64,000 nucleotides of DNA from contig NC_092372.1 in assembly GCF_030028105.1 (NCBI RefSeq), positions 200,547,898 to 200,611,897 on the forward strand, given 5' to 3'. Numbering within the stretch: position 1 is the first letter of the stretch; the number at the start of each line of letters is the position of its first letter. The translations under genes were made by a program, and so were the position numbers. Below, piece by piece: positions 2,393 to 57,764 of this stretch. Under the pieces are notes generated by a model, which saw only the letters and a program-made list of their open reading frames with translations, ran no database searches and was not told the origin of the DNA. Source of the DNA: Mobula birostris. Lineage: Eukaryota.

Positions 2393-3354
2393 AAAGTGCT
2401 ATACCTTACACTTGTCTGCATTAAATTTCATTTGCCATTTTTCACCTCATTTTTCCAGCTGGTCCAGATCCCACTGCAAGCTCTGATAGTCTTCCTTGTT
2501 GTCCTTTACAACTCCAATCTTGAAGTTATCCATAAATTTTCTGATCTAGTTTACCACATTATCATCTAGATTGTTGATATAGATGACAAACACCAATAGA
2601 CCCAGCACCATTTCCGGTGGTACAGCTAGTCACAGGCTTCCAGTTAGAGAGGCAACCAGTTACTACAACTCTCTGACCTCTCCCACGAAGCCAACATCTA
2701 ATCCCATTTACTACCTCATTTTGAATGCCAAGCTACTGAACCTTCTTAACTAACCTCCTACGTGGGACCTTCTCAAAGGCCTTGCTAAAGTCTGCGTAGA
2801 CAACATCCACTGTCTTGCCTTCATCAGCTTTTCTAGTAAATTCCATTTAAAAACCCTATAAGATTCGTTGGGCACAACCTACCACTCATGAAGACATGTT
2901 GACTATCCCTAATCAGTCGCTATCTATCCAAATACTCATATATCGAGTCCCTTAGAATACCTTCCAATAACTTACACATTACTGATTCAGGCCCACTGAC
3001 CTATTATTCCCTGGTTTATTCTTAGAGCCTTTCTTAAACAATAGAACAACATTAGCTATCCTGCGATTTCTCGGCACCTCACCTATGGCTAAGGACATTT
3101 ATATATCTCTGCTAGGGCCCCTACAATTTCTGCACTAACCTCACTCAGGGTTCAAGAAAACACTTTGTCAGACCTTGGGGATATATTCACCCTACTTTTC
3201 CTCAAGACAACAAACACCTTCTCCTCTGTAATCTGTATCTGGTCCATGACGTCACTGCTTCTTTGTTTCATTTCTATAGACTCTGTGGTATCTTCTGAGA
3301 AAATACAGATGTCAAAAATCCATTTAAGATCTCCCCCATATCTTTTGGTTCCAT

Positions 3355-3928
3355 CAACACACATCAAAGTTGCTGGTGAACGCAGCAGGCCAGGCAGCAT
3401 CTCTAGGAAGAGGTACAGTCGAAGTTTCAGGCCGAGACCCTTTGTCAGGACTAACTGAAGGAAGAGCTAGTAAGCAATTTGAAAGTGGGAGGGGAGGAGG
3501 AGGGGGAGATCCAAAATGATAGGAGAAGACAGGAAAGGGAGGGATGGAGCCAAGAGCTGGACAGGTGATTGGCAAAGGGGATCTGAGAGGATCATGGGAC
3601 AGGAGGTCCGGGGAGAAAGACAAGGGCGGGGGGGATCCAGAGGATGGGCAAGGGGTATAGTCAGAGGGACAGAGGGAAAAAACGGAGAGTGAGAGAAAGA
3701 ATGCGTGTATAAAAATAAATAATGGATGGGGTATGAGGGGGAGGTGGGGCATTAGCGGAAGTTAGAGAAGTCGATGTTCATGCCATCAGGTTGGAAGCTA
3801 CCCAGACGGAATATGAGGTGTTGTTCCTCCAACCTGGGTGTGGCTTCATCTTTACAGTAGAAGAGGCCGTGGATAGACATGTCAGAATGGGAGTGTGATG
3901 TGGAATTAAAATGTGTGGCCACTGGGAG
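3355..3928 (-). mobile_element. Penelope-like element 3' fragment: GIY-YIG C-terminus, 3' UTR and hammerhead motif
   Basis: ORF 3752-3943 (LPVATHFNSTSHSHSDM...LEEQHLIFRLGSFQPDGMNIDFSNFR) is a typical PLE endonuclease end; perfect 15-bp TSD atcttttggttccat at 3340-3354 and 3929-3943. Confidence 0.9.
3417..3452 (-). ncRNA. Degenerate minimal type I hammerhead ribozyme motif
   Basis: Minus strand AGUC CUGACAA A GGGU CUCG GCCU GAAA CUUC GACU; stems I and II present, G8 and stem III mutated. Confidence 0.65.
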
Positions 3929-5702
3929 ATCTTTTGGTTCCATGCCTAGATTACCACTCTGATCTATCAGAGAACCAATTCATTTTGCTCTTAATATATC
4001 TCTAGAAGCTCTAGGATTCTTCTTCACCTTGTCTGCTACAACAACCTCATGCTTTCTTTTAGCCTTTCTGATTTCCTCCTTTTAACTGCGTTTCTCCTGC
4101 GTTTCTTATATTCCTCAGGTACCTCATTTGTTCCTACCTGCCTATATTTGATATGCACTTCCTTTTTTTGTTAACCAGGGCTTCAATATCTCTCAAAAAC
4201 CAATGTTCCCTAAACTTGTTATCCTTGCCTTTTATTCTGACAAGAAAATACAAACTCTATACTCTGAAAATTTCACTTCTGAAGGCCTCCCACTTATCAT
4301 GTACACTTCTTGCTGAAAACAATCTTTCCCAATCTGCACTTTTCTGAAGCCATCAAAATTGGCCTTTTTCCAGTTCAGAATCTCAGCCCAAGGACCAGAC
4401 CTATTCTTTTCCATAATTACCTTGAAATTAATGGCATTATGATTCTATTATGAATGAAGAAGAGACAATTCATGAGGGGCATCTTTTCTACTGGGGTCTC
4501 CCCCACCCACGTGACATACAGCTTTGACTTAGAGTATAATGGAGCTTGTAGATTGCACTATCTTGTACTTGTTAACACTGAAGAACCAAATTACCAAAAT
4601 TGATTTCAAGTCAGACACAAAGCAAGATAAACCAATTGCGACGATAGGATGAAGATAAAAGCTTTTGTTTCCTTTCAAGGTTTCTGGAAATCAAAAAGTG
4701 CTTAAAATGCTTAGCAAATCAGATAATGATTGGAAAATTGGTCTGATTTAGCGATGTTTATTGAGGAAACTGCAAAGACTTTTATTTTTGTTATTAACAT
4801 CATTCTGCATTCAACTGTGAGGTTTAACCAAGCTCAGAATCCTTTCCAAACACAAAACCTGGAACCTGTGTTAATGACTTATCATTCTTCTATTGGGAGT
4901 TTTCTGTACTGTGACCGCAGAATGGCTTCACATTATAAAACAAAGAAGGTGAAAGTTATGAGAAAAGTCATGCCTACAAAACACAAAATACTAAACCAAG
5001 TAAAGTTTCTAAAGGTGATGCTTTTTAGAATACTGTCTGTGAAGCCTTGAACTCATGCTGTGACACATAAATAGTAACTTTAATGTAAGGATAATCTAAT
5101 TTAGGTAATGTCTCTATTAAGTGTTGGATAGTAGAATTTTATATGACTGCATTATCTCATTCTACATTTTTGAGGCCAATAAGAATTAATATGCCTTTAC
5201 AAATTGAAAATTAAGTTAAAATTTGCTAGAGCTAGTCCTAATTTTCAAGTCAGTTGTAAGAAGAGAATGAAAAACTAATCAATGTTTTATTTGTTTGTGT
5301 GTGTTTTTTTTAAATTTGGTATAAGGAAAGAATACAGTAAATTATTTAAAATTCTCACTTCCTTTTTCAGTTGAGGTTTTAGGACATCCATCTTGATGTC
5401 AGCTATTGTGAAGAAATGTTCTGTTACATTTTTCTGGAATGACTACCCATCGGGTTATCAGAGAACACGTAAATCCACAGCGTTAACATCTCAGAGGGAG
5501 GAATGCTCTCATACCAGACAAATGAGGAAAACAGCATGGAACTGATTGTGCTTTCTCATGGGTAGCAGATACACACCATTTATAATTCTACAAACTCATT
5601 TTCTGAGAAGACGGTGAAAGCATCAGTCCTATGCAACAGAAAGCTCCCTTTAGCTAACACATAAACTGGTGTGCCTTTTCGAGTATCACTGAATGATACA
5701 GA

Positions 5703-6545: not shown

Positions 6546-6640
6546 GGCCAATGATGAAGGGTCTCAGCTCAAATCATTGACTCTTTATTGCTTTCCATAG
6601 AAGTTGCCTGGCCTGTTGAGATCTCCCAGCATTTGGTGGT
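6546..6640 (+). mobile_element. Short PLE-derived repeat with decayed hammerhead motif
   Basis: atgatgaagggtctcagctcaaatcattgact followed by the family tail ccatagaagttgcctggcctgttgagatctcccagcattt. Confidence 0.6.
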
Positions 6641-13872: not shown

Positions 13873-14005
13873 AGTCCTAATGAAGGGTCTTGGCCCAAAG
13901 CGTCGACTCTTTACTCCTTTCCATAGATGCTGCCTGGCCTGCAGGGTTCCCCCAGCGTTTTGTGTGTTTTGCTTTGGATCCTGAGAATCTGCAGATTTTC
14001 TTGTG
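13873..14005 (+). mobile_element. Short PLE-derived repeat with hammerhead motif (G5 and G12 mutated)
   Basis: AGUC CUAAUGA A GGGU CUUG GCCC AAAGCGUC GACU at 13873-13908, followed by the family tail to ctgcagattttcttgtg. Confidence 0.75.
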
Positions 14006-39137: not shown

Positions 39138-41961
39138 GTAAGTTCAGTGGGCTCGACCGTGCATGCTCTCAGAATTATCGTTGCAGCTATTCTTTCCTTT
39201 AGTGTCCTTGAGGTTTGAATCAAACTCCGGACTTCTCTGACAGGGCTGTTCTGTAAAGCAATTCACTCCACAAGTTGCAACCATAATTCACAACTAAATT
39301 GAAGGCACACTTTAGCAGTTTTTAAAGGGTAATGTTATATAAGGCAAAGTAAAACAAATATTGTACCTGCACTTACCTTTCAGATTAGTGCTGACATTGG
39401 AATGAACAGGGCCTTGCTAAATGGGGCAGTAATGGTTGGCATCAAGCTGAGGACCCTGATACACAGTGGCCACACTGCTCAATACATCTGAATTTTATCT
39501 TGGCACTGAAGCCAGCTGCAGGAGGCCAGCTGTCCAAGGCCTGGACCTCCAGGACATTCCTAACTTCTGCGGTGTAGGAAACATATGCATTCACCCATTA
39601 AGGCCACCAGCTCCCTGGTCTTGCTGACATTAAGAAAGATGTTGTTGTGACATCACCCAGCTAGATGTTCAATCTCCCTCCTATCTGCTGATTTGTTACC
39701 ACCTTTGATTTAGTCTACAGCAGATGGTGTCATCAGCAAATTTGAATATAGCAATGAAGCTGTGCTCAGTCACGCAGTCATGAGTGTAGAGCAAGTGGAG
39801 CAGGGTTCTAAGCACACAGCTTTGTGGGTGGACCATTGCTAGAGGAGATTGCGGAGGAGATGTTTTAGCCAATCTGAAGTGATTGGGGTCTGCAAGTGAG
39901 GAAATCGAGGATCTAATTGCAGAGGGAGGTATTAAGGCCTAGGTCTTGAAGCTTATTGATTAGTTTTGAGGAGTTGATGACATTGAATGCTGAGCTGTGC
40001 TTGATAAAGAGCATCCTGATGTATGTATCTTTACTGTTCAGGGTTTGTTCCAGGGTTGAGGAAAGAGCCAATGAGATGGCATCCACTGTGGCCTTGTTGC
40101 ACCAGTAGGCAAATTGCAGTGGACTCAAGTCATTTCTCAGGCAGGAGTTGATATGTTTCACCATCAACCCCTCAAAACATTTCATAGATAGAGGTAGATA
40201 GATACTTTATTGATCCCAAAGGAAATTAGTGTCACAGTAGCATTGCAAGTGCACAGATATACAAGTATACAAATATTAGATGAGAAGTAAGAAAGAATAA
40301 AAAAAAATAAGTCACCTGAAACAGTCTAACAGGAGGGTGCTATATTGACTCATTATAGAGCCTAATGGCTGACGGTAAGAATAACCTCATATAGCGCTCT
40401 CTGGAGCCATTTGTTTGTTTTAGTCTATCACTAAAAGTGCTCCTCTGTTCAGCCAAGGTGGCATGCAGAGGGTGAGAAACATTGTCCAGAATTGCCAGGA
40501 TTTTCCATAGGGTCCTTTGTTCTGCCACAGCCTCCAGTGTGTCCAGTTTGACTCCTATAACAGAGCCAGACTTACCAATCAGTTTATTGAGCCTGTTGGC
40601 ATCATCTGTGTTGATGCTATTGCCCCAGCACACCACAGCATAGAAGATTGTACTGGCGACAACAGACTGGTAGAACATGTGAAGGAGAGGCCTGAAACTC
40701 CAAAAGCACCTCAGTCTCCTCAGGAAGTAGAGATAACTCTAGCCCTTCTGAAATGCAGTCTCTGTGTTGGTGTCTTACCAAGTCTATCATCCAGGTGCAC
40801 CCCCAGGTGCTTATAGGTCCTCACCACATCCACATCCTCACCATCAATAGTAACTGGGGGCAGTACAGGCTTGGTCTTCCTAAAGTCCGTTATCATCTCA
40901 TCTGTCTTACTGATGTTGAGCTGTAGATGATTCAGCTTGCACCATTTGACAAAGTCCTCCACCAGGGTCCTGTATTCATTCTCCTGTCCTCCCTTCATAC
41001 ACCCAACTATTGCTAAGTCATCAGAGAATTTCTGCAGATGACATGACTCAGTGTTGTATCTAAAGTTCGAAGTATACAGGGTAAACAGGAAGGGAGTCGA
41101 TACAGTCTCCTATGGGGCCCCAGTGCTGCTGAAAGCCATGTCTGACGCATAGATCTGAAACCGCACAAACTGTGGTCTGCCACTCAGGTAGTCCATTATC
41201 CAGGATACAATGGAAGTGCCAATCTGCATTGAACAGAACTTTTACCCTAACAATGAGGACTGTATGATATTGAAGGCACTTAAGAAATCAAAAACATGAT
41301 CCTCACAGTGCTGCCCTGGTGATCCATATGGGAGTAGGACTGTTCAGCAGGTGGATGACAGCATCATCAGCTCCAATGTACTCCTGGCAGGCAAACTGCA
41401 GGGGATCAAAAGCTTATCTGACCAGGGTCTTCATGATGTGTGAGGTCAGGGCCATGGGACGGTAGTCATTTAAGACTTTCGGTTGGCCCTTATTGGATAC
41501 TGGGATCTCACATGATGCTTTCCACACAGTTGGACCCCTTTCCAGGCTGAGACTCAGACTGAAAGTGCGCTGGAGATCCCCACACAGCTGCTCAGCACAC
41601 TCCTTCAGGACCTTGGGGTTCACACCATCTGGTCCCAATGATATGCCATTTCTGAGTTTCCCCAGAGCCCTTGTCACCTGCTCAGTTGCGAAGGTGAGTC
41701 CATGATGACTGGGGAGTTGGTGGAAGGTGGGGACTGAGGAAGGTGATAACAGTTGGTATGTGAGGTGTGGATGTAGGTGTAAGTCAAGGAGGGGGATGTA
41801 GTTGGTGGTAGCCCGTGTTGTTCATCCACGTTTTGAACTGGAGGGAGGAAGAGAAGGAGGGGAGGCATTGGTGCTGAGGAAGCATTGAGTGCCTCAGCAC
41901 CTGGACTGATGTGCTGATGGGTGTGTTAACAAGGAGGACAATTATCAAACATATTGAAGAA

Positions 41962-42315
41962 ACACACATAAAAATTGCTGGTGAACGCAGCAGACCAGGT
42001 AGCATCTCTAGGAAGAGGTACAGTCGATGTTTCAGGCTGAGACCCTTCGTCAGGACTAACTGAAAGAAGAGCTAGTAAGAGATTTGAAAGTGAGGGGGGA
42101 GGGGAGATCTGAAATGATAGGAGAAGACGGGGGGGTGGTGGAGGGATGGAGCTAAGAGCTGGAAAGTTGATTGGCAAAAGGGATATGAGAGGATCATGGG
42201 ACGGGAGGCCTAGGGAGAAAGAAAGGGGGAGGGGGGAAGCCAGAGGATGGTCAAGGAGTATAGTGAGAGGGGCAGAGGGAGTAAAAGGAGAGAGAGGAAA
42301 AAAAGAGAGAAAAAC
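41962..42315 (-). mobile_element. PLE-derived 3' fragment with hammerhead motif, nested in Rex
   Basis: Closely similar to 3355-3700; imperfect TSD attgaagaa / attggagaa (41953-41961, 42316-42324). Confidence 0.85.
42022..42057 (-). ncRNA. Minimal type I hammerhead ribozyme motif, catalytic core intact
   Basis: AGUC CUGACGA A GGGU CUCA GCCU GAAA CAUC GACU: CUGANGA, GAAA and an NUH triplet (AUC), with stems I and II. Confidence 0.75.
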
Positions 42316-42883
42316 ATTGGAGAATTGGTTTAAGTCATTAGCCTATTCAAAGCTGCATTCCAAGGTTCTACAACTAGGCTGGTTGAAGTCATTGATGTTC
42401 TTCATGCTTCTCCACTCTTCCTAAATACTACTCTGCCAAGACTTGTTCTCCTGCTCTCTCCTGTATTCCTCTTTAGCCACCTTGATCTTATCATTTAGCA
42501 CCCCCTGCACATGTTTCAGTTCCTCCCTGTCCCCTGTTCTAAAGGCCTTTTTTGTGTCAGAGAAGATCCTTTAGATCTCTGGTGACCCATGGTTTGTTGT
42601 TAGGGAAGCAGCGAACAGTCCTTGATAGTATTATGGTGTCCATACAGCTGTTGACGTAGCCAGTGATGCAATCAATAAGTCCGTTAATGTCCTCACCCAT
42701 ATGGTTCACAAAGCACACTCCAGTCAGTAACATCAAAGCAAGCCTTGATGGCCTCTGGAGATCATTTCTTTACTATCTTGGTGATAGCTAGCTGTTGCTG
42801 TACTTTGGGTATGCCTACTTGAAGCTGATAGGTGACTCTGGCTGCCGAAGTGAGAGGTTGAAGATATCGGTGAACCTTCCAGT

Positions 42884-43168
42884 CAGTTGATCAGATTAAG
42901 ACTTTAGTACACAACCAGGTAGTTCATCTGGGGTGGATACTCTCTCTATGGGTTCACCCACCCTGAAAGATGCTCTTCAGCCAGTAGATCAGCACACATC
43001 TTTAGTACTTGGCCAGATTACCACATCTGGGCCGGATTCTCTCCTTGGGTTCACCCCTGTGAAGGATGCTCTCCAGACAGTAGGTCAGCACAGGTCTTTA
43101 GTACTTGGCCTGGTACCCCATCTGGGCTGGATACTCTTTGTGGGTTCACCCCCTTGAAAGATGCTCTC
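42884..43168. repeat. Three diverged tandem copies of a 96-98 bp unit inside a Rex element
   Basis: tttagtac recurs at 42903, 43001 and 43097; tgggttcaccc and gatgctct also recur three times. Confidence 0.85.
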
Positions 43169-53052: not shown

Positions 53053-53489
53053 TAAACTTCCTTCATTTTCTCACCTCCTGCACCTGTGTTTGTCAACTTC
53101 ACTTCCATCTAAACTCAGTCTGGACTTCTTTCCACTCTGAATCAAGAATAGTATTTACAGCATTGTCTCCATTCTTGGCGTTGATTTTGCTTCTAAACTA
53201 ATCTCACCCAGGATTTATTATTTGAATCAGACTTCCTGCTTTTTTTCACATAACAATTGTTTTTGTGTTCTTTATTTGGCTTGGATCTTCATCCACTATG
53301 GCACAGTTGGAATCCATGTTATGCAGACCTGCTCCTATTCAAGGTGTGCAGTGTGCCTGGTGCCTTCTTGTGACATCAGCCAGTGTTACTCAAGGATCTG
53401 TTTCAAGGTTCACAGTAAATTTATTATCAGAGTACATTGTCTTTATATCAGCAGGAATTGATAGGTTTAGAAAAGATGTCGATTGACAG

Positions 53490-55065
53490 TTTTTCTCTGG
53501 GAATGCATACAGATAGATCTTGGTGGGAGGAGGGGGTGGGTAGGGGATGTGTCAGAAATGGACCCAAGTGAATTTAGACGCAGGTGGAAGTTGGAGGCCA
53601 AGTTGATGAGATTGACGTCTTCAGCACATGAAGCAGCACCATTGCAATTGTCAATGTAGCGCGGGAGGAGTTGGAAGCATTACCAGAGTAGGCTTGGAAC
53701 ATGGACTTTTCTATACAACTAATGAAAAAAATAGGCATAGCTGAGTCTTTTGTGGGTGCCCATGGCTGTCACTCAAGTCTGAGAAAGTGGGAGGAGCCAA
53801 AGGAAAAATGCTGAGGGTGAAGACCAGGTCTGCCAGATGGAGGAGGGGAACTGTATGGTTCTTTTATTGAGAAATAAGTGGAGAGCTTTAAGATCTTATT
53901 GATAGGGGTTAGAAATGTATAGGGACAGGACATTGATGGTGAAAATGCAGTGGTCAGTGCCAGGGAATTGAAAGTTAGTGAGGAGTTCAAGGGCATGAGA
54001 AGTGTCATGGATGTAGGTGGGAAGGAACTGAACCAAGGGGATAGAATGGTGGTGAGATACGAGGACACAAGTTCTGTGCGGTAAGAGCAGGCAGAGACAA
54101 TGGGCCTTCCCGGACAGTCTGATTTATGGATCTTGGGTAGGATGTAGTAGTGAGCAATATGGGGCAAGGGAATTATGAGTCTGGCGAGAGTGCATGGGAG
54201 TTGTTCAGTGATGGTGTTGGAGACGGTTTTCTGATGCTCCAGAGTGGTGTCACCTTCAAGGGGTAGATGTGAGGAAGTGTCTGAAGGTTGTTACCTGGCC
54301 TCAGCAAAGTAGAGATCAGTCTACAACAGCATCCCTTTCGTTTACAGGTTTGATGGTGAGGTTGGGATTGGTGTGGAGAGAGTGGAGGACAATGCTTTCA
54401 GGGGGAATAAGTTTCCAGGGGGATGAGCAGTGCTGAGATCGAGACAGTTGCAGTGTAGTTGTCAATTGAAGATGAAAAGATCCAGCGCAGGCTGAGAACC
54501 AGAGTGGTGTGTCCGAGGAGAGGAGGAGTGATGGAGAGGGAAGATCGGGTCATCAGTACAGGGTATTGAATTCTGGCCAAAGAAGTGGGCTCAAAGTTGG
54601 AGATGATGGAGGAAGAGCTCGACATTGGGGTGTGCATGGAAGTCAGTGAGGTACGGGCAATGGGGGGACAAAGGAAAGGCTCTTGCCGAGGACAGAACGT
54701 TCCACCTCCAAGAGGGGAAGGTCAGGAGGGAATGGTGAATACACGGCAAGGATTAGAGCAGGAAGCAGAGAGGGGTTAGAGTGTTGGTGGCACTGGGGGG
54801 GGGGGGGTGTTGGGGAGCTCAGGGAATGTGGTGTGGGAGGAAGATGGAGTCTCTGGAGACCCAGAAGACCTGGGGTTGGAAAGGGGTGTTGTGGGGAGCG
54901 GGTGTCGCAGGGCCTCAGTGGCAGCAAGTAAAATCTTAGCCTGGAGGTACTGGCGGCCAAGGTCCAGGCTAGAGCCAGAGCTAGAGCCTATGCGATTTGT
55001 TGTCTGAAGGCGTCCAGGCCTCTAGGAACCGGAGTAGGTGGCCGTGAAATCTGAGATCTGTATCC
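53490..55065 (-). mobile_element. Penelope-like element reverse transcriptase remnant
   Basis: ORF 53769-54167 (YILPKIHKSDCPGRPIVSACS..TELVSSYL); FSFGSSHFL followed by AMGT, typical of PLE RT. Confidence 0.88.
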
Positions 55066-55465
55066 ACTTGGGATTGTTGATAGGTTTTTCATTTGTCAGG
55101 GCATCAAAGGTTATGGAGTGAAAGCAGGAGAATGGAACTGAGCAGGATAATATTCAACCATGGACACACTCAACAGGCCGAATGGTCTAATTCTGCTCCT
55201 ATGTCTTATGGTCTTATTTCAAATTTCCAGTGTCAGTTATTTTCCTTGAGTACATTATAGAAGAGCCATAGAAAATTACTGTGGAGAGCAAGCCTAATCA
55301 GGCTACCATATCTATGTGCACTAACACAGACTCTAGGGTAATTCACTTCCATGCTTTTGGTCCCTAACACTGCAGCTAATGGATCTTCAAGTGTTTATCT
55401 TGGTGAAGAAGGTTTGTACTCCTGCTTTATTGCCCAGGGAGTTCCATTGCCCTACTACTTCCTAA

Positions 55466-56032: not shown

Positions 56033-57764
56033 CATTGGTGCTAGCAAGTTTGTGAACCCCGTAGAATTTTCTCTTTTTCAGCATAAATATGACATAAAAG
56101 GTGATCAGTTCTTCATGTAAGTCCTAAAACTAGATAAAGAGAACCTAATTAAATAAATAACACAAAACATTATATTTGTTCATTTATTTGTTGAGAAAAA
56201 TGATCCAATATTACATGTATTTGTTGGAAAAGGTATGTGAACCTCTGGAGTAATGCCTTTTACAAAAGCTATTTAGAATCAGGTGTTCCAAGCAAGGAGA
56301 TGAGATTGGAGATGTGAGTTGTAGAGATGCCCTGCCCGATTTAAAAAAAAGACATAAACAGGAGAAAATCTGCAGATGCTGAAAATCCGAACAACACAGA
56401 AATGGTGGAGGAACTCAGCAGGCCAGGCAGCATCTAGGAAAAGAATTCAGTTGACATTTCAGGCCAAAACCCTTCAGCAGGACTAAGACACACAAAGTCA
56501 GGTTACTGACAGAACCTACTCTACTCAAAGAGATCTGCTTATGTGCACCATCCCTTGATCAAAACAACTTTCAGAGGATCTTAGAAGAATTGTAGAGCTG
56601 CATGAAGCTGGAGAAAAACTACAAAAGCATTTCTAAAAGACCTGAGTGTGCATCACTCCACAGTAAGAGAAATTGTCTACAAATGCAGGAAACTCAGTAC
56701 TGTTGCTACTCTTCCTAGGAGTGGGTATCCTTCAAAGATCACACCAAGAACACAAAATGCATTGCTGAAGGAAGTGAAAAGGAACCCAAAGGTAACCGCA
56801 AAAGGCCCGCAGAAATCTTTAGAACTTGCTATTGTCTCTGTTCATGTGCCCACCATAAGAAGAACACTGAACAAGAATGGTGTTCACGGAAGGACACCAT
56901 GGAGGAAACCTCTGCTCTCCAAATAAAACACTGCTGTACATCTAATGTTTGCAAAAGACCACCTGGGTGTTCTACAATGTTTCTGAGATAACATTCTGTG
57001 GACAGGTGGGACAAAAGTTGAGTTTTTGGCAGAAATACACATTGCTATGTTTGGAGGGAAAAGGGCACTTCCACAGCAACACCAAAACCTCATCACAACT
57101 GTGAAACATGGTGGAAGGAGCATCATGGTTTGGGGCTGCCTTGTTGCCTCAGGCCCTGGATAACTTGCAATCATTGAGGGAACAATGAATTCAAAATTGT
57201 ATCAAGACATTTTATAGGAGAATTTCAAGGTAGCAGTCCGGTACCTGAAGCTTAGAAGAAGTTCGATAATGCAACAAGACAATAATCCGAAAGACAAGAG
57301 TAAATCAACAACAGAACGGTTTAAAAAATATAAAATTCGTGTTTCGGAATGGCTAAGTTAAAGTCCTGACCTTAGTCCTGTAGAAATGTTGTGGAAGGAC
57401 CTGAAGCAAGCAGTTCATGCAAGGAAGTCCTACAAGTTGAGGAATGGCCAAAAAATTCCTCCAAACCGATGTACAGGATTAATCAACAGTTACCAGAAAT
57501 GTTTGGTTGAAGTTATTGCTGTGCAAGGCAGTCTCACCAGTTACTGAAGGCAAAGATTTACATACTTTTTCCAACAATACATGTAATATTGGATCAATTT
57601 TCTCAACAAATAAATGAAGTATAGAGATTTTTTATGTTATTTATTTAATTGGGTTCGCTTTATCTAGTTTTTGGACTTACATGAAGGTCTGATCACATTT
57701 TAGCTCATATTTATGGAAAAATAGAGAAAATTCTACAGGGTTCACGAACTTTCTAGTACCACTG
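56033..57764 (+). mobile_element. Tc1 DNA transposon, Frog Prince-like, with about 210-bp TIRs; transposase pseudogene about 56550-57547
   Basis: TA duplication (56031-56032, 57765-57766); long TIRs; STVREIVYK...LPRSG.PSKITPR...RKPLLSK; QQDNNPK...SPDLSPVEMLW with a 34-residue D-E spacing; first catalytic D mutated; stops and frameshifts. Confidence 0.95.
56355..56484 (-). mobile_element. 130-bp PLE-derived hammerhead-headed repeat inserted in Tc1
   Basis: 6-bp TSD aagaca (56349-56354, 56485-56490); minus strand begins AGUC CUGCUGA A GGGU UUUG GCCU GAAA UGUC AACU. Confidence 0.85.

What the first reader, a model, noticed from the sequence alone, without database searches (positions are those of the whole stretch)
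42022..42057. Minimal hammerhead ribozyme in Penelope-derived repeats, probably dimer-dependent
Seen: AGUC-CUGACGA-A-GGGU(CUCA)GCCU-GAAA-CAUC-GACU has a complete catalytic core, stem I, stem II and an extra A between A9 and stem II. Comparing the window's copies (3417-3452, 13873-13908, 42022-42057, 56449-56484) reconstructs ...GAAACGUC, where stem III has no loop and is the palindrome ACGU. Known: PLEs carry minimal type I hammerheads that cleave as dimers through palindromic stem III. Inference: the ancestral RNA cleaved after GUC only as a tandem or trans dimer; most lesions in these copies fall at CpG sites.
Basis: partly seen in the sequence, partly recalled or inferred. Interest (0 to 1): 0.7.

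Follow-up and report, generated by a model that had tools for sequence, protein, structure and literature searches.

The report
Decayed Penelope hammerhead; RNA starts there
This is a broken copy of the tiny self-cutting "hammerhead" RNA motif that Penelope-type jumping genes are already known to carry; the family has about 65,000 intact copies in this genome, and their left ends suggest the element's RNA likely starts at the motif's first base and is likely copied uncut.

Summary
The motif is real and lies on the minus strand. It is a minimal type I hammerhead in the terminal repeat (pLTR) of a Neptune-like Penelope retroelement (RT, Cys linker, GIY-YIG). Near-full-length copies carry two same-strand hammerheads 3.2-3.9 kb apart. 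The genome holds 65,020 exact core-plus-ACGU-palindrome matches, against 1 in the control. This kind was described in 2014. The copy at 42022 has lost the palindrome (G16.2 to A) and is predicted not to cleave as a homodimer. Cleavage was not tested. Three additions. (1) Of 157 copies from evenly spaced stretches, 26 begin within the first five bases of the hammerhead and none at positions 32-34 around the cut; an extra G often precedes that start. This points to a capped, uncut template. (2) An old subfamily with the core change A6C, which includes the 56449 copy, was amplified; A6C cripples Mg-dependent cleavage in other hammerheads. (3) Folding predicts that inactive structures beat the active dimer. 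The scan had noted this motif, and point 1, on other shark or ray DNA. Verdict: new member of a known kind, modest interest.

The parts
42022..42057 (-). Minimal type I hammerhead, decayed. Stem I 5' strand 42057-42054; core C3-A9 42053-42047; extra A 42046; stem II 42045-42034; G12-C15.2 42033-42029; position 16.2 at 42028 (A instead of G, palindrome broken); U16.1 42027; C17 42026; predicted cut between 42026 and 42025; stem I 3' strand 42025-42022
41961..42021 (-). Tail downstream of the hammerhead, ending at the nearer of two preferred 3' ends of the family
42058..42303 (-). Pyrimidine-rich pLTR upstream of the hammerhead, 5'-truncated, no ORF left; sits inside an older decayed RT-encoding repeat
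3355..3928 (-). Sister copy: end of the GIY-YIG ORF (3752-3925), pLTR, hammerhead 3417-3452 (G8 and G16.2 changed) and tail; flanked by a 15-bp target-site duplication (about 3929-3943 and 3340-3354)
13873..14001 (+). Older-subfamily hammerhead (13873-13908, G5 and A14 changed) with tail; short copy
56357..56486 (-). Hammerhead 56449-56484 carrying the A6C core change, with tail; short copy
6554..6638 (+).
   Evidence: 80% over 85 nt to 13880-13964

Best explanation
Window 42022-42057 (minus) is a decayed copy of the minimal type I hammerhead in the terminal repeat of a very abundant Penelope-like retroelement, likely of the Neptune type; this copy has lost its ACGU palindrome and is predicted not to cleave as a homodimer, while the intact motif likely cuts after GUC only as a double hammerhead and likely weakly or with the element's protein. 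Shown: architecture, position in the pLTR, copy number, ends of copies. Inferred: the element's RNA starts, capped, at the first base of stem I. Reverse transcription starts at one of two sites about 65 and 100 nt past the cut site and copies mostly uncut RNA. Starts in the 3' repeat give 5'-truncated copies such as this one; starts in the 5' repeat run off the RNA end and give 100-135-nt inserts that begin at stem I. Cleavage is then a side or regulatory step, not a required step of copying.
For: Element: 4 of 20 fetched 10-kb stretches hold two same-strand hammerheads 3,237-3,927 nt apart around an RT and GIY-YIG ORF, and 6 of 20 have an inverted upstream copy. Pfam RVT_1 E 4.4e-5 and GIY-YIG E 0.0035, both under the curated cut-offs. 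The ORF remnant beside the 3417 copy is 91% identical over 57 aa to that ORF. Copy number: 65,020 against 1 control; 75 hammerhead-spanning copies in 100 evenly spaced 10-kb stretches, 20 of 75 with intact core and palindrome. Stem III duplex -3.1 kcal/mol in intact copies, +2.8 for this copy. 5' ends: 26 of 157 tail-bearing copies at positions 1-5, none at 32-34 (5 of 162 dropped as too near an edge); Poisson p 1e-10 against the mean neighbouring rate, 4e-6 against the highest. 6 of 19 non-inverted short copies have a flank repeat of 8 nt or more against 1.8% of 336 control pairs. Base before position 1: 58 G and 42 A among 100 listed hits (my hand count; p 0.0009 against 0.42); 27 of 30 such loci are truncations; of 7 with a duplication, 2 carry exactly one extra G and 2 carry 3-4 extra bases ending in G. 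Two 3' end clusters match the two RT start sites and optional tail in PMC11167929, which also reports uncut RNA as the main substrate and a protein-assisted ribozyme.
Against: No cleavage assay and no read-level RNA data. Stems show no double-sided compensatory change worth the name among 75 copies, and the tail at positions 51-81 is about as conserved across subfamilies as the hammerhead, so selection on the ribozyme fold is not shown here. Cleavage followed by religation into circles would also leave seamless copies. The G excess is modest, and 3 of 7 copies with a duplication have no extra base. Boundaries in old copies are alignment-based; one of the 26 (L148 plus) looks like an artefact; 3 copies begin at position 31 and 7 at 35-36. 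About half of the copies starting at stem I are arms of inverted pairs (13 of 30 flagged), so fold-back may add to the peak. No intact ORF was seen, but none was searched for properly.
Confidence: 0.72

Rival explanations
1. Cut-and-circle model of PMC4209133: both hammerheads of a tandem transcript cleave as a dimer, the unit is religated into a circle, and reverse transcription of the circle gives seamless, more-than-unit copies.
For: Direct-repeat hammerhead pairs 3.2-3.9 kb apart with partial upstream repeats; intact core and palindrome in 65,020 places; dimer cleavage shown, at low level, for a Schistosoma motif (PMC4209133, part 2).
Against: A circle has no end at stem I, yet 26 of 157 copies start there with a G excess. 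None starts at positions 32-34, where linear cut RNA would leave ends. In Anolis no RNA-seq reads began or ended at the cut (PMC11167929).
Confidence: 0.14
2. The motif is a catalytically idle relic, kept because it overlaps the transcription start and the protein-binding or RT-start region.
For: A6C: 896 exact hits against 255 for the A6T control; 7 of 20 loci share a distinct upstream flank; 8 of 75 sampled copies carry it. A6C cut the Mg2+ rate of another hammerhead from 0.3 to 3.55e-6 per min (PMC7151607). G10.1 faces U rather than C in 34 of 75 sampled copies and 21 of the first 30 strict hits. Predicted inactive folds beat the active dimer by 9-19 kcal/mol. Naiad PLEs spread without canonical hammerheads (PMC8557442).
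Against: Core, spacing and palindrome are kept across subfamilies whose immediate flanks differ. The folding model ignores core and protein contacts. The related Anolis motif does cleave when protein is present.
Confidence: 0.12
3. The pile-up of 5' ends at stem I comes from a 3' splice site, or from trimming or fold-back of cDNA at the base of the hairpin, not from a transcription start.
For: A pyrimidine tract and AG precede the motif; in Drosophila Penelope an intron ends at helix I (PMC4209133). The intact 36-mer folds as a long hairpin and many copies are inverted pairs joined in this region.
Against: Copies that start at stem I share no upstream exon. By eye I found no consensus donor in the pLTR, and the branch-point-like word varies between subfamilies. 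Neither route predicts an extra G.
Confidence: 0.15
4. Chance resemblance to a hammerhead in a repeat.
For: Loose descriptor at chance level in the window; fold z 0.41; no Rfam hit.
Against: All minimal-hammerhead features occur together, at the place in a PLE where they are described (PMC4209133).
Confidence: 0.02

Closest known systems
Minimal hammerheads (min-HHR) in pLTRs of metazoan Penelope-like elements, Cervera and De la Pena 2014, PMC4209133 (parts 1-2 of 4 read; one supplement file searched, the other not searchable)
   Same: Type I; 4-bp helix I; one base between positions 9 and 10.1; loopless palindromic 15.2-16.2; mostly single dispersed copies, a few in direct pairs about 3 kb apart or in close inverted pairs.
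   Different: Helix II is 4 bp here against 7-8 bp in their Schistosoma families. 65,020 intact matches against their 4,000 (coelacanth) and 9,000 (Xenopus), with different descriptors. G10.1-U11.1 is common and an A6C subfamily exists. No shark or skate name was found in the searchable supplement.
PAc, Poseidon element of Anolis carolinensis, Frangieh et al. 2024, PMC11167929 (parts 1-2 of 4 read)
   Same: Hammerhead in the pLTR; two adjacent RT start sites giving an optional tail; uncut RNA as template.
   Different: In PAc the ORF starts inside stem II. Here the likely start codon lies about 135 nt past the cut, and a Cys linker points to Neptune rather than Poseidon.
Neptune clade of EN+ PLEs, as described in PMC8557442 (passages read)
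   Same: RT, then a CX4CxxC linker, then a C-terminal GIY-YIG domain; partial tandems, inverted 5' copies and a 30-40-bp optional tail.
   Different: No tree was built; Nematis shares the linker and is not formally excluded.
Non-LTR retrozymes of vertebrates, bioRxiv 10.64898/2026.07.22.740005 (part 1 of 5 and passages read)
   Same: Type I hammerheads derived from PLE pLTRs, reported also from one chondrichthyan genome.
   Different: Retrozymes are tandem arrays; the window's copies are dispersed truncated ends.
Dimer-cleaving PLE hammerhead variants, Lunse, Weinberg and Breaker, RNA Biol (not held; seen only as a title and as summarised in PMC6765202)
   Same: Palindromic, very short stem III and dimer cleavage, as summarised in the review.
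   Different: Could not check whether it lists this family, A6C or G10.1-U11.1 variants.

Membership tests
PLE minimal type I hammerhead | Core CUGANGA and GAAA-H17 around a three-way junction with open stem I | tested here: met
   met by this copy and by the family
PLE minimal type I hammerhead | One extra base between A9 and G10.1 | tested here: met
   A in all 49 older-subfamily and all 26 young copies
PLE minimal type I hammerhead | Palindromic 15.2-16.2 with no loop 3 | tested here: met
   Met by the family (65,020 hits); not met by the 42022 copy itself, G16.2 to A
PLE minimal type I hammerhead | G10.1-C11.1 pair | tested here: inconclusive
   G-C in 37, G-U in 34 of 75 copies; G-U in this copy
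PLE minimal type I hammerhead | Location in the pLTRs of a PLE, sense to the ORF | tested here: met
PLE minimal type I hammerhead | Compensatory changes in the stems | tested here: inconclusive
   Stems nearly invariant; changes are single-sided or CpG decay
PLE minimal type I hammerhead | Cleavage as dimer but not as monomer | not testable with these tools
   Needs an in vitro assay; folding only
Endonuclease-bearing Penelope-like element | Single ORF with RT and C-terminal GIY-YIG between pLTRs | tested here: met
   Weak Pfam hits to both domains in the right order, below curated cut-offs; all copies read carry stops or frameshifts
Endonuclease-bearing Penelope-like element | Partial tandems, inverted 5' copies, optional 30-40-bp tail | tested here: met
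Neptune clade | CX2-5CxxC linker between RT and endonuclease | tested here: met
   CX4CxxC seen in the translations of L082 and L083; motif definition from PMC8557442
Neptune clade | Placement in an RT tree | not tested
   No reference PLE proteins were fetched
Non-LTR retrozyme | Tandem non-coding units, each with a hammerhead | tested here: not met
   Window copies are dispersed and attached to PLE sequence

The most novel reading that the evidence does not exclude
The hammerhead works like the R region of a retrovirus. The RNA starts, capped, at its first base. The 5' copy, free of upstream sequence, acts as the enzyme. The 3' copy has its core masked by the upstream pyrimidine tract (predicted pairing 0.73-0.88 in the main subfamily) and offers only its GUC. 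One directional cut leaves an RNA with a 32-nt terminal repeat. RT starts in the 5' tail, makes a 100-135-nt strong-stop cDNA and jumps to the 3' repeat. Failed jumps are the short inserts that begin at stem I. This would explain pseudo-LTRs and partial tandems without circles. Against: masking is weak in the A6C subfamily, the one-site complex is predicted 8 kcal/mol less stable than the separate folds, and direct starts in an uncut 3' tail give the same DNA.
Probability: 0.13. Interest if true: 0.7.

Novelty: new member of a known kind. Interest (0 to 1): 0.3.

Why it matters
The motif itself adds a large example from a probable cartilaginous fish to a class known since 2014. What PLE hammerheads do is still open (PMC8557442 says so). 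This family makes the question testable: tens of thousands of copies record where the RNA starts and where copying starts, and natural variants (A6, A6C, G10.1-U11.1) can be assayed side by side. If a subfamily with a crippled core spread this widely, cleavage is not needed for PLE mobility in vivo, extending the in vitro result for the Anolis element.

Tried and rejected
Rfam scan: no hammerhead model hit at E up to 5. Pfam on the two short window fragments and NCBIfam on two ORFs: nothing. Sequencing runs: no RNA holder listed; all were contigs of guessed type. Two layings cannot show starts, ends or strand, and only the best-supported joints were shown (15 of 216), so they say nothing about cleavage, splicing or circles. 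The first look at 5' ends was biased by selecting intact motifs and was replaced by evenly spaced stretches. A genome-wide count of tail-bearing copies was not obtained; the tail statistics rest on 1 Mb from six contigs. The protein search used an old diverged fragment, so it is no test for intact ORFs; the longest open frame listed was 510 aa. In one search locus L210 was read on the wrong strand and is not counted as sharing the flank. In one search the sixth sequence was mis-addressed and is ignored. L079 looked like a direct pair but its upstream copy is a separate insertion. A target-site duplication for the 42022 copy was not found with confidence. Literature searches: searches turned up no paper on this family, but the Lunse paper, one Cervera supplement and bioRxiv supplements could not be seen and may list it. 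Search of earlier findings by sequence: nothing.

Full report
Observation. On the minus strand, window 42022-42057 reads as a minimal type I hammerhead: 4-bp stem I, CUGACGA, an extra A, 4-bp stem II, GAAAC, AUC and the stem I partner. One copy alone is not above chance: 3 loose matches against 1.2 expected, fold z 0.41, no Rfam hit. The family is: 40,557 strict matches against 0 control and 65,020 core-plus-palindrome matches against 1 in a 4.0-Gb genome. In 100 evenly spaced 10-kb stretches 75 copies span the motif and 20 of them keep core and palindrome, which would extrapolate to roughly 300,000 copies. Against an intact copy the four window copies differ at 15 places, 11 of them CpG.

What it belongs to. 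The 3417 copy continues upstream into 57 codons that are 91% identical to the end of a longer ORF elsewhere and is flanked by a 15-bp duplication. Of 20 stretches fetched around RT matches, 4 hold two same-strand hammerheads 3,237-3,927 nt apart and 6 hold an inverted upstream copy. The ORF has RT, a CX4CxxC linker and a GIY-YIG domain, with weak Pfam support below the curated cut-offs; all copies read are broken. That layout is the Neptune or Nematis type in PMC8557442 (passages read), and the 2026 bioRxiv preprint lists Neptune and Poseidon as the vertebrate groups (passages read). The hammerhead is sense to the ORF, about 290 nt after the stop codon in L083, followed by a tail that ends about 65 or about 100 nt past the predicted cut. 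The 42022 copy is a 343-nt truncated end (41961-42303) inserted in an older RT-encoding repeat.

Can it cleave? This copy has G16.2 changed to A; its stem III duplex is predicted at +2.8 kcal/mol against -3.1 for intact copies, so it should not work as a homodimer, though its core could in principle act on an intact partner. For intact copies the loopless stem III can only form between two molecules (established argument, PMC4209133). The folding model, which ignores core and protein contacts, prefers inactive forms. The monomer folds as a rod in which G5-G8 pair with C15.2-C17 (-10.0 or -11.9). The active double hammerhead scores -9.5 or -14.7 against -20.0 or -23.8 for two monomers and -28.3 or -32.1 for the best dimer. 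With 15 or more upstream bases the core pairs with the pyrimidine tract (0.73-0.88 in two copies of the main subfamily, 0.21-0.68 in two of a second, 0.01-0.20 in two A6C copies). This agrees with the low activity in PMC4209133 and the protein dependence in PMC11167929. Against selection on the fold: the stems show no real covariation and the tail is about as conserved as the motif. For it: core and spacing persist while the flanks on both sides differ between subfamilies.

What the copy ends say. Of 162 tail-bearing copies, 157 had enough flank. 43 run more than 60 nt upstream; 26 begin at positions 1-5 of the hammerhead (5.2 per base against 0.2-1.8 in the neighbouring bins); none begins at 32-34, around the cut; 3 begin at 31 and 7 at 35-36, mostly old diverged copies. 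Poisson p is 1e-10 against the mean neighbouring rate and 4e-6 against the highest. One of the 26 looks like an artefact and many are arms of inverted pairs. 6 of 19 non-inverted short copies have a flank repeat of 8 nt or more, against 1.8% of controls. An earlier scan note suggested a cap; I tested it. Of 1,998 copies with a purine before position 1, the 100 listed show 58 G and 42 A (hand count; p 0.0009); 27 of 30 loci are truncations, and 4 of 7 with a duplication carry extra bases that end in G, two of them a single G. The bases around position 1 also fit a pyrimidine-pyrimidine-A initiator consensus (recalled). The simplest reading is a capped RNA that starts at stem I and is copied uncut. 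A splice acceptor or cDNA fold-back remain possible.

Variants. A6C gives 896 exact hits against 255 for A6T; 7 of 20 loci share their own upstream flank while 4 are sporadic changes in the main subfamily; 8 of 75 sampled copies carry it. The 56449 copy carries A6C with an older-type tail and probably belongs here. In another hammerhead A6C lowered the Mg2+ rate about 100,000-fold while sparing Mn2+ activity (PMC7151607, passages read). G10.1 faces U in 34 of 75 copies, more than CpG decay alone suggests in young copies (21 of the first 30). Both point to weak dependence of mobility on cleavage, which is inference.

Mechanism, committed. Shown: anatomy, position, abundance, ends. Inferred: capped start at stem I; RT start at two tail sites; uncut template; cleavage only as a double hammerhead, weak or protein-assisted, as a side or regulatory step; this locus inert. 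Confidence 0.72. The boldest reading not excluded is the R-region model in the most novel reading (0.13).

Comparison and verdict. The architecture, location and dispersal are those of PMC4209133; tail and uncut template are those of PMC11167929. Six literature searches found no description of this family, but the Lunse paper and some supplements could not be read. Eight earlier scan notes describe the same motif in shark or ray DNA, two on this genome, and three already mention uncut templates or left ends at the motif; these are leads, not support. New member of a known kind; interest 0.3.

Noticed in passing
window about 53480-55080, minus: Old, heavily broken Penelope-type RT ORF fragment with no hammerhead attached; 60-70% identical to its best relatives in the genome.
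   Followed up: partly
L114, L119, L128, L154, L172 and others: Head-to-head inverted pairs joined inside the hammerhead; the two arms often end at different preferred tail sites, which would fit independent priming on both target strands, as the Anolis protein does in vitro (PMC11167929).
   Followed up: partly
L083 6673-6708 and all intact copies: A second palindrome, GUCGAC, spans the cut site; its duplex (-10.3 kcal/mol) is predicted to be far more stable than stem III and would sequester the site.
   Followed up: partly
L080 minus, 5' repeat: In a second subfamily the ORF frame is open through the hammerhead from the AG of stem I, without an ATG at the position used in the main subfamily; a spliced start is conceivable.
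   Followed up: no
L051 and L211 (one locus); C1 3182948 and 3183150; C1 6021940 and 6022009: Short same-strand hammerhead tandems 36-200 nt apart, which could form dimers in cis and resemble retrozyme seeds.
   Followed up: no
L081 minus, ORF 5' part: Internal tandem triplication of a Pro/Ser-rich segment lengthens the element to 3.9 kb.
   Followed up: no
L122, L127, L153: A more distant family shares the tail but has a different sequence just after the hammerhead position.
   Followed up: no
window 40340-42900, minus: Decayed RT-encoding repeat that hosts the 42022 insertion (RVT_1 E 5e-4); the window as a whole is dense in LINE-like remnants.
   Followed up: partly
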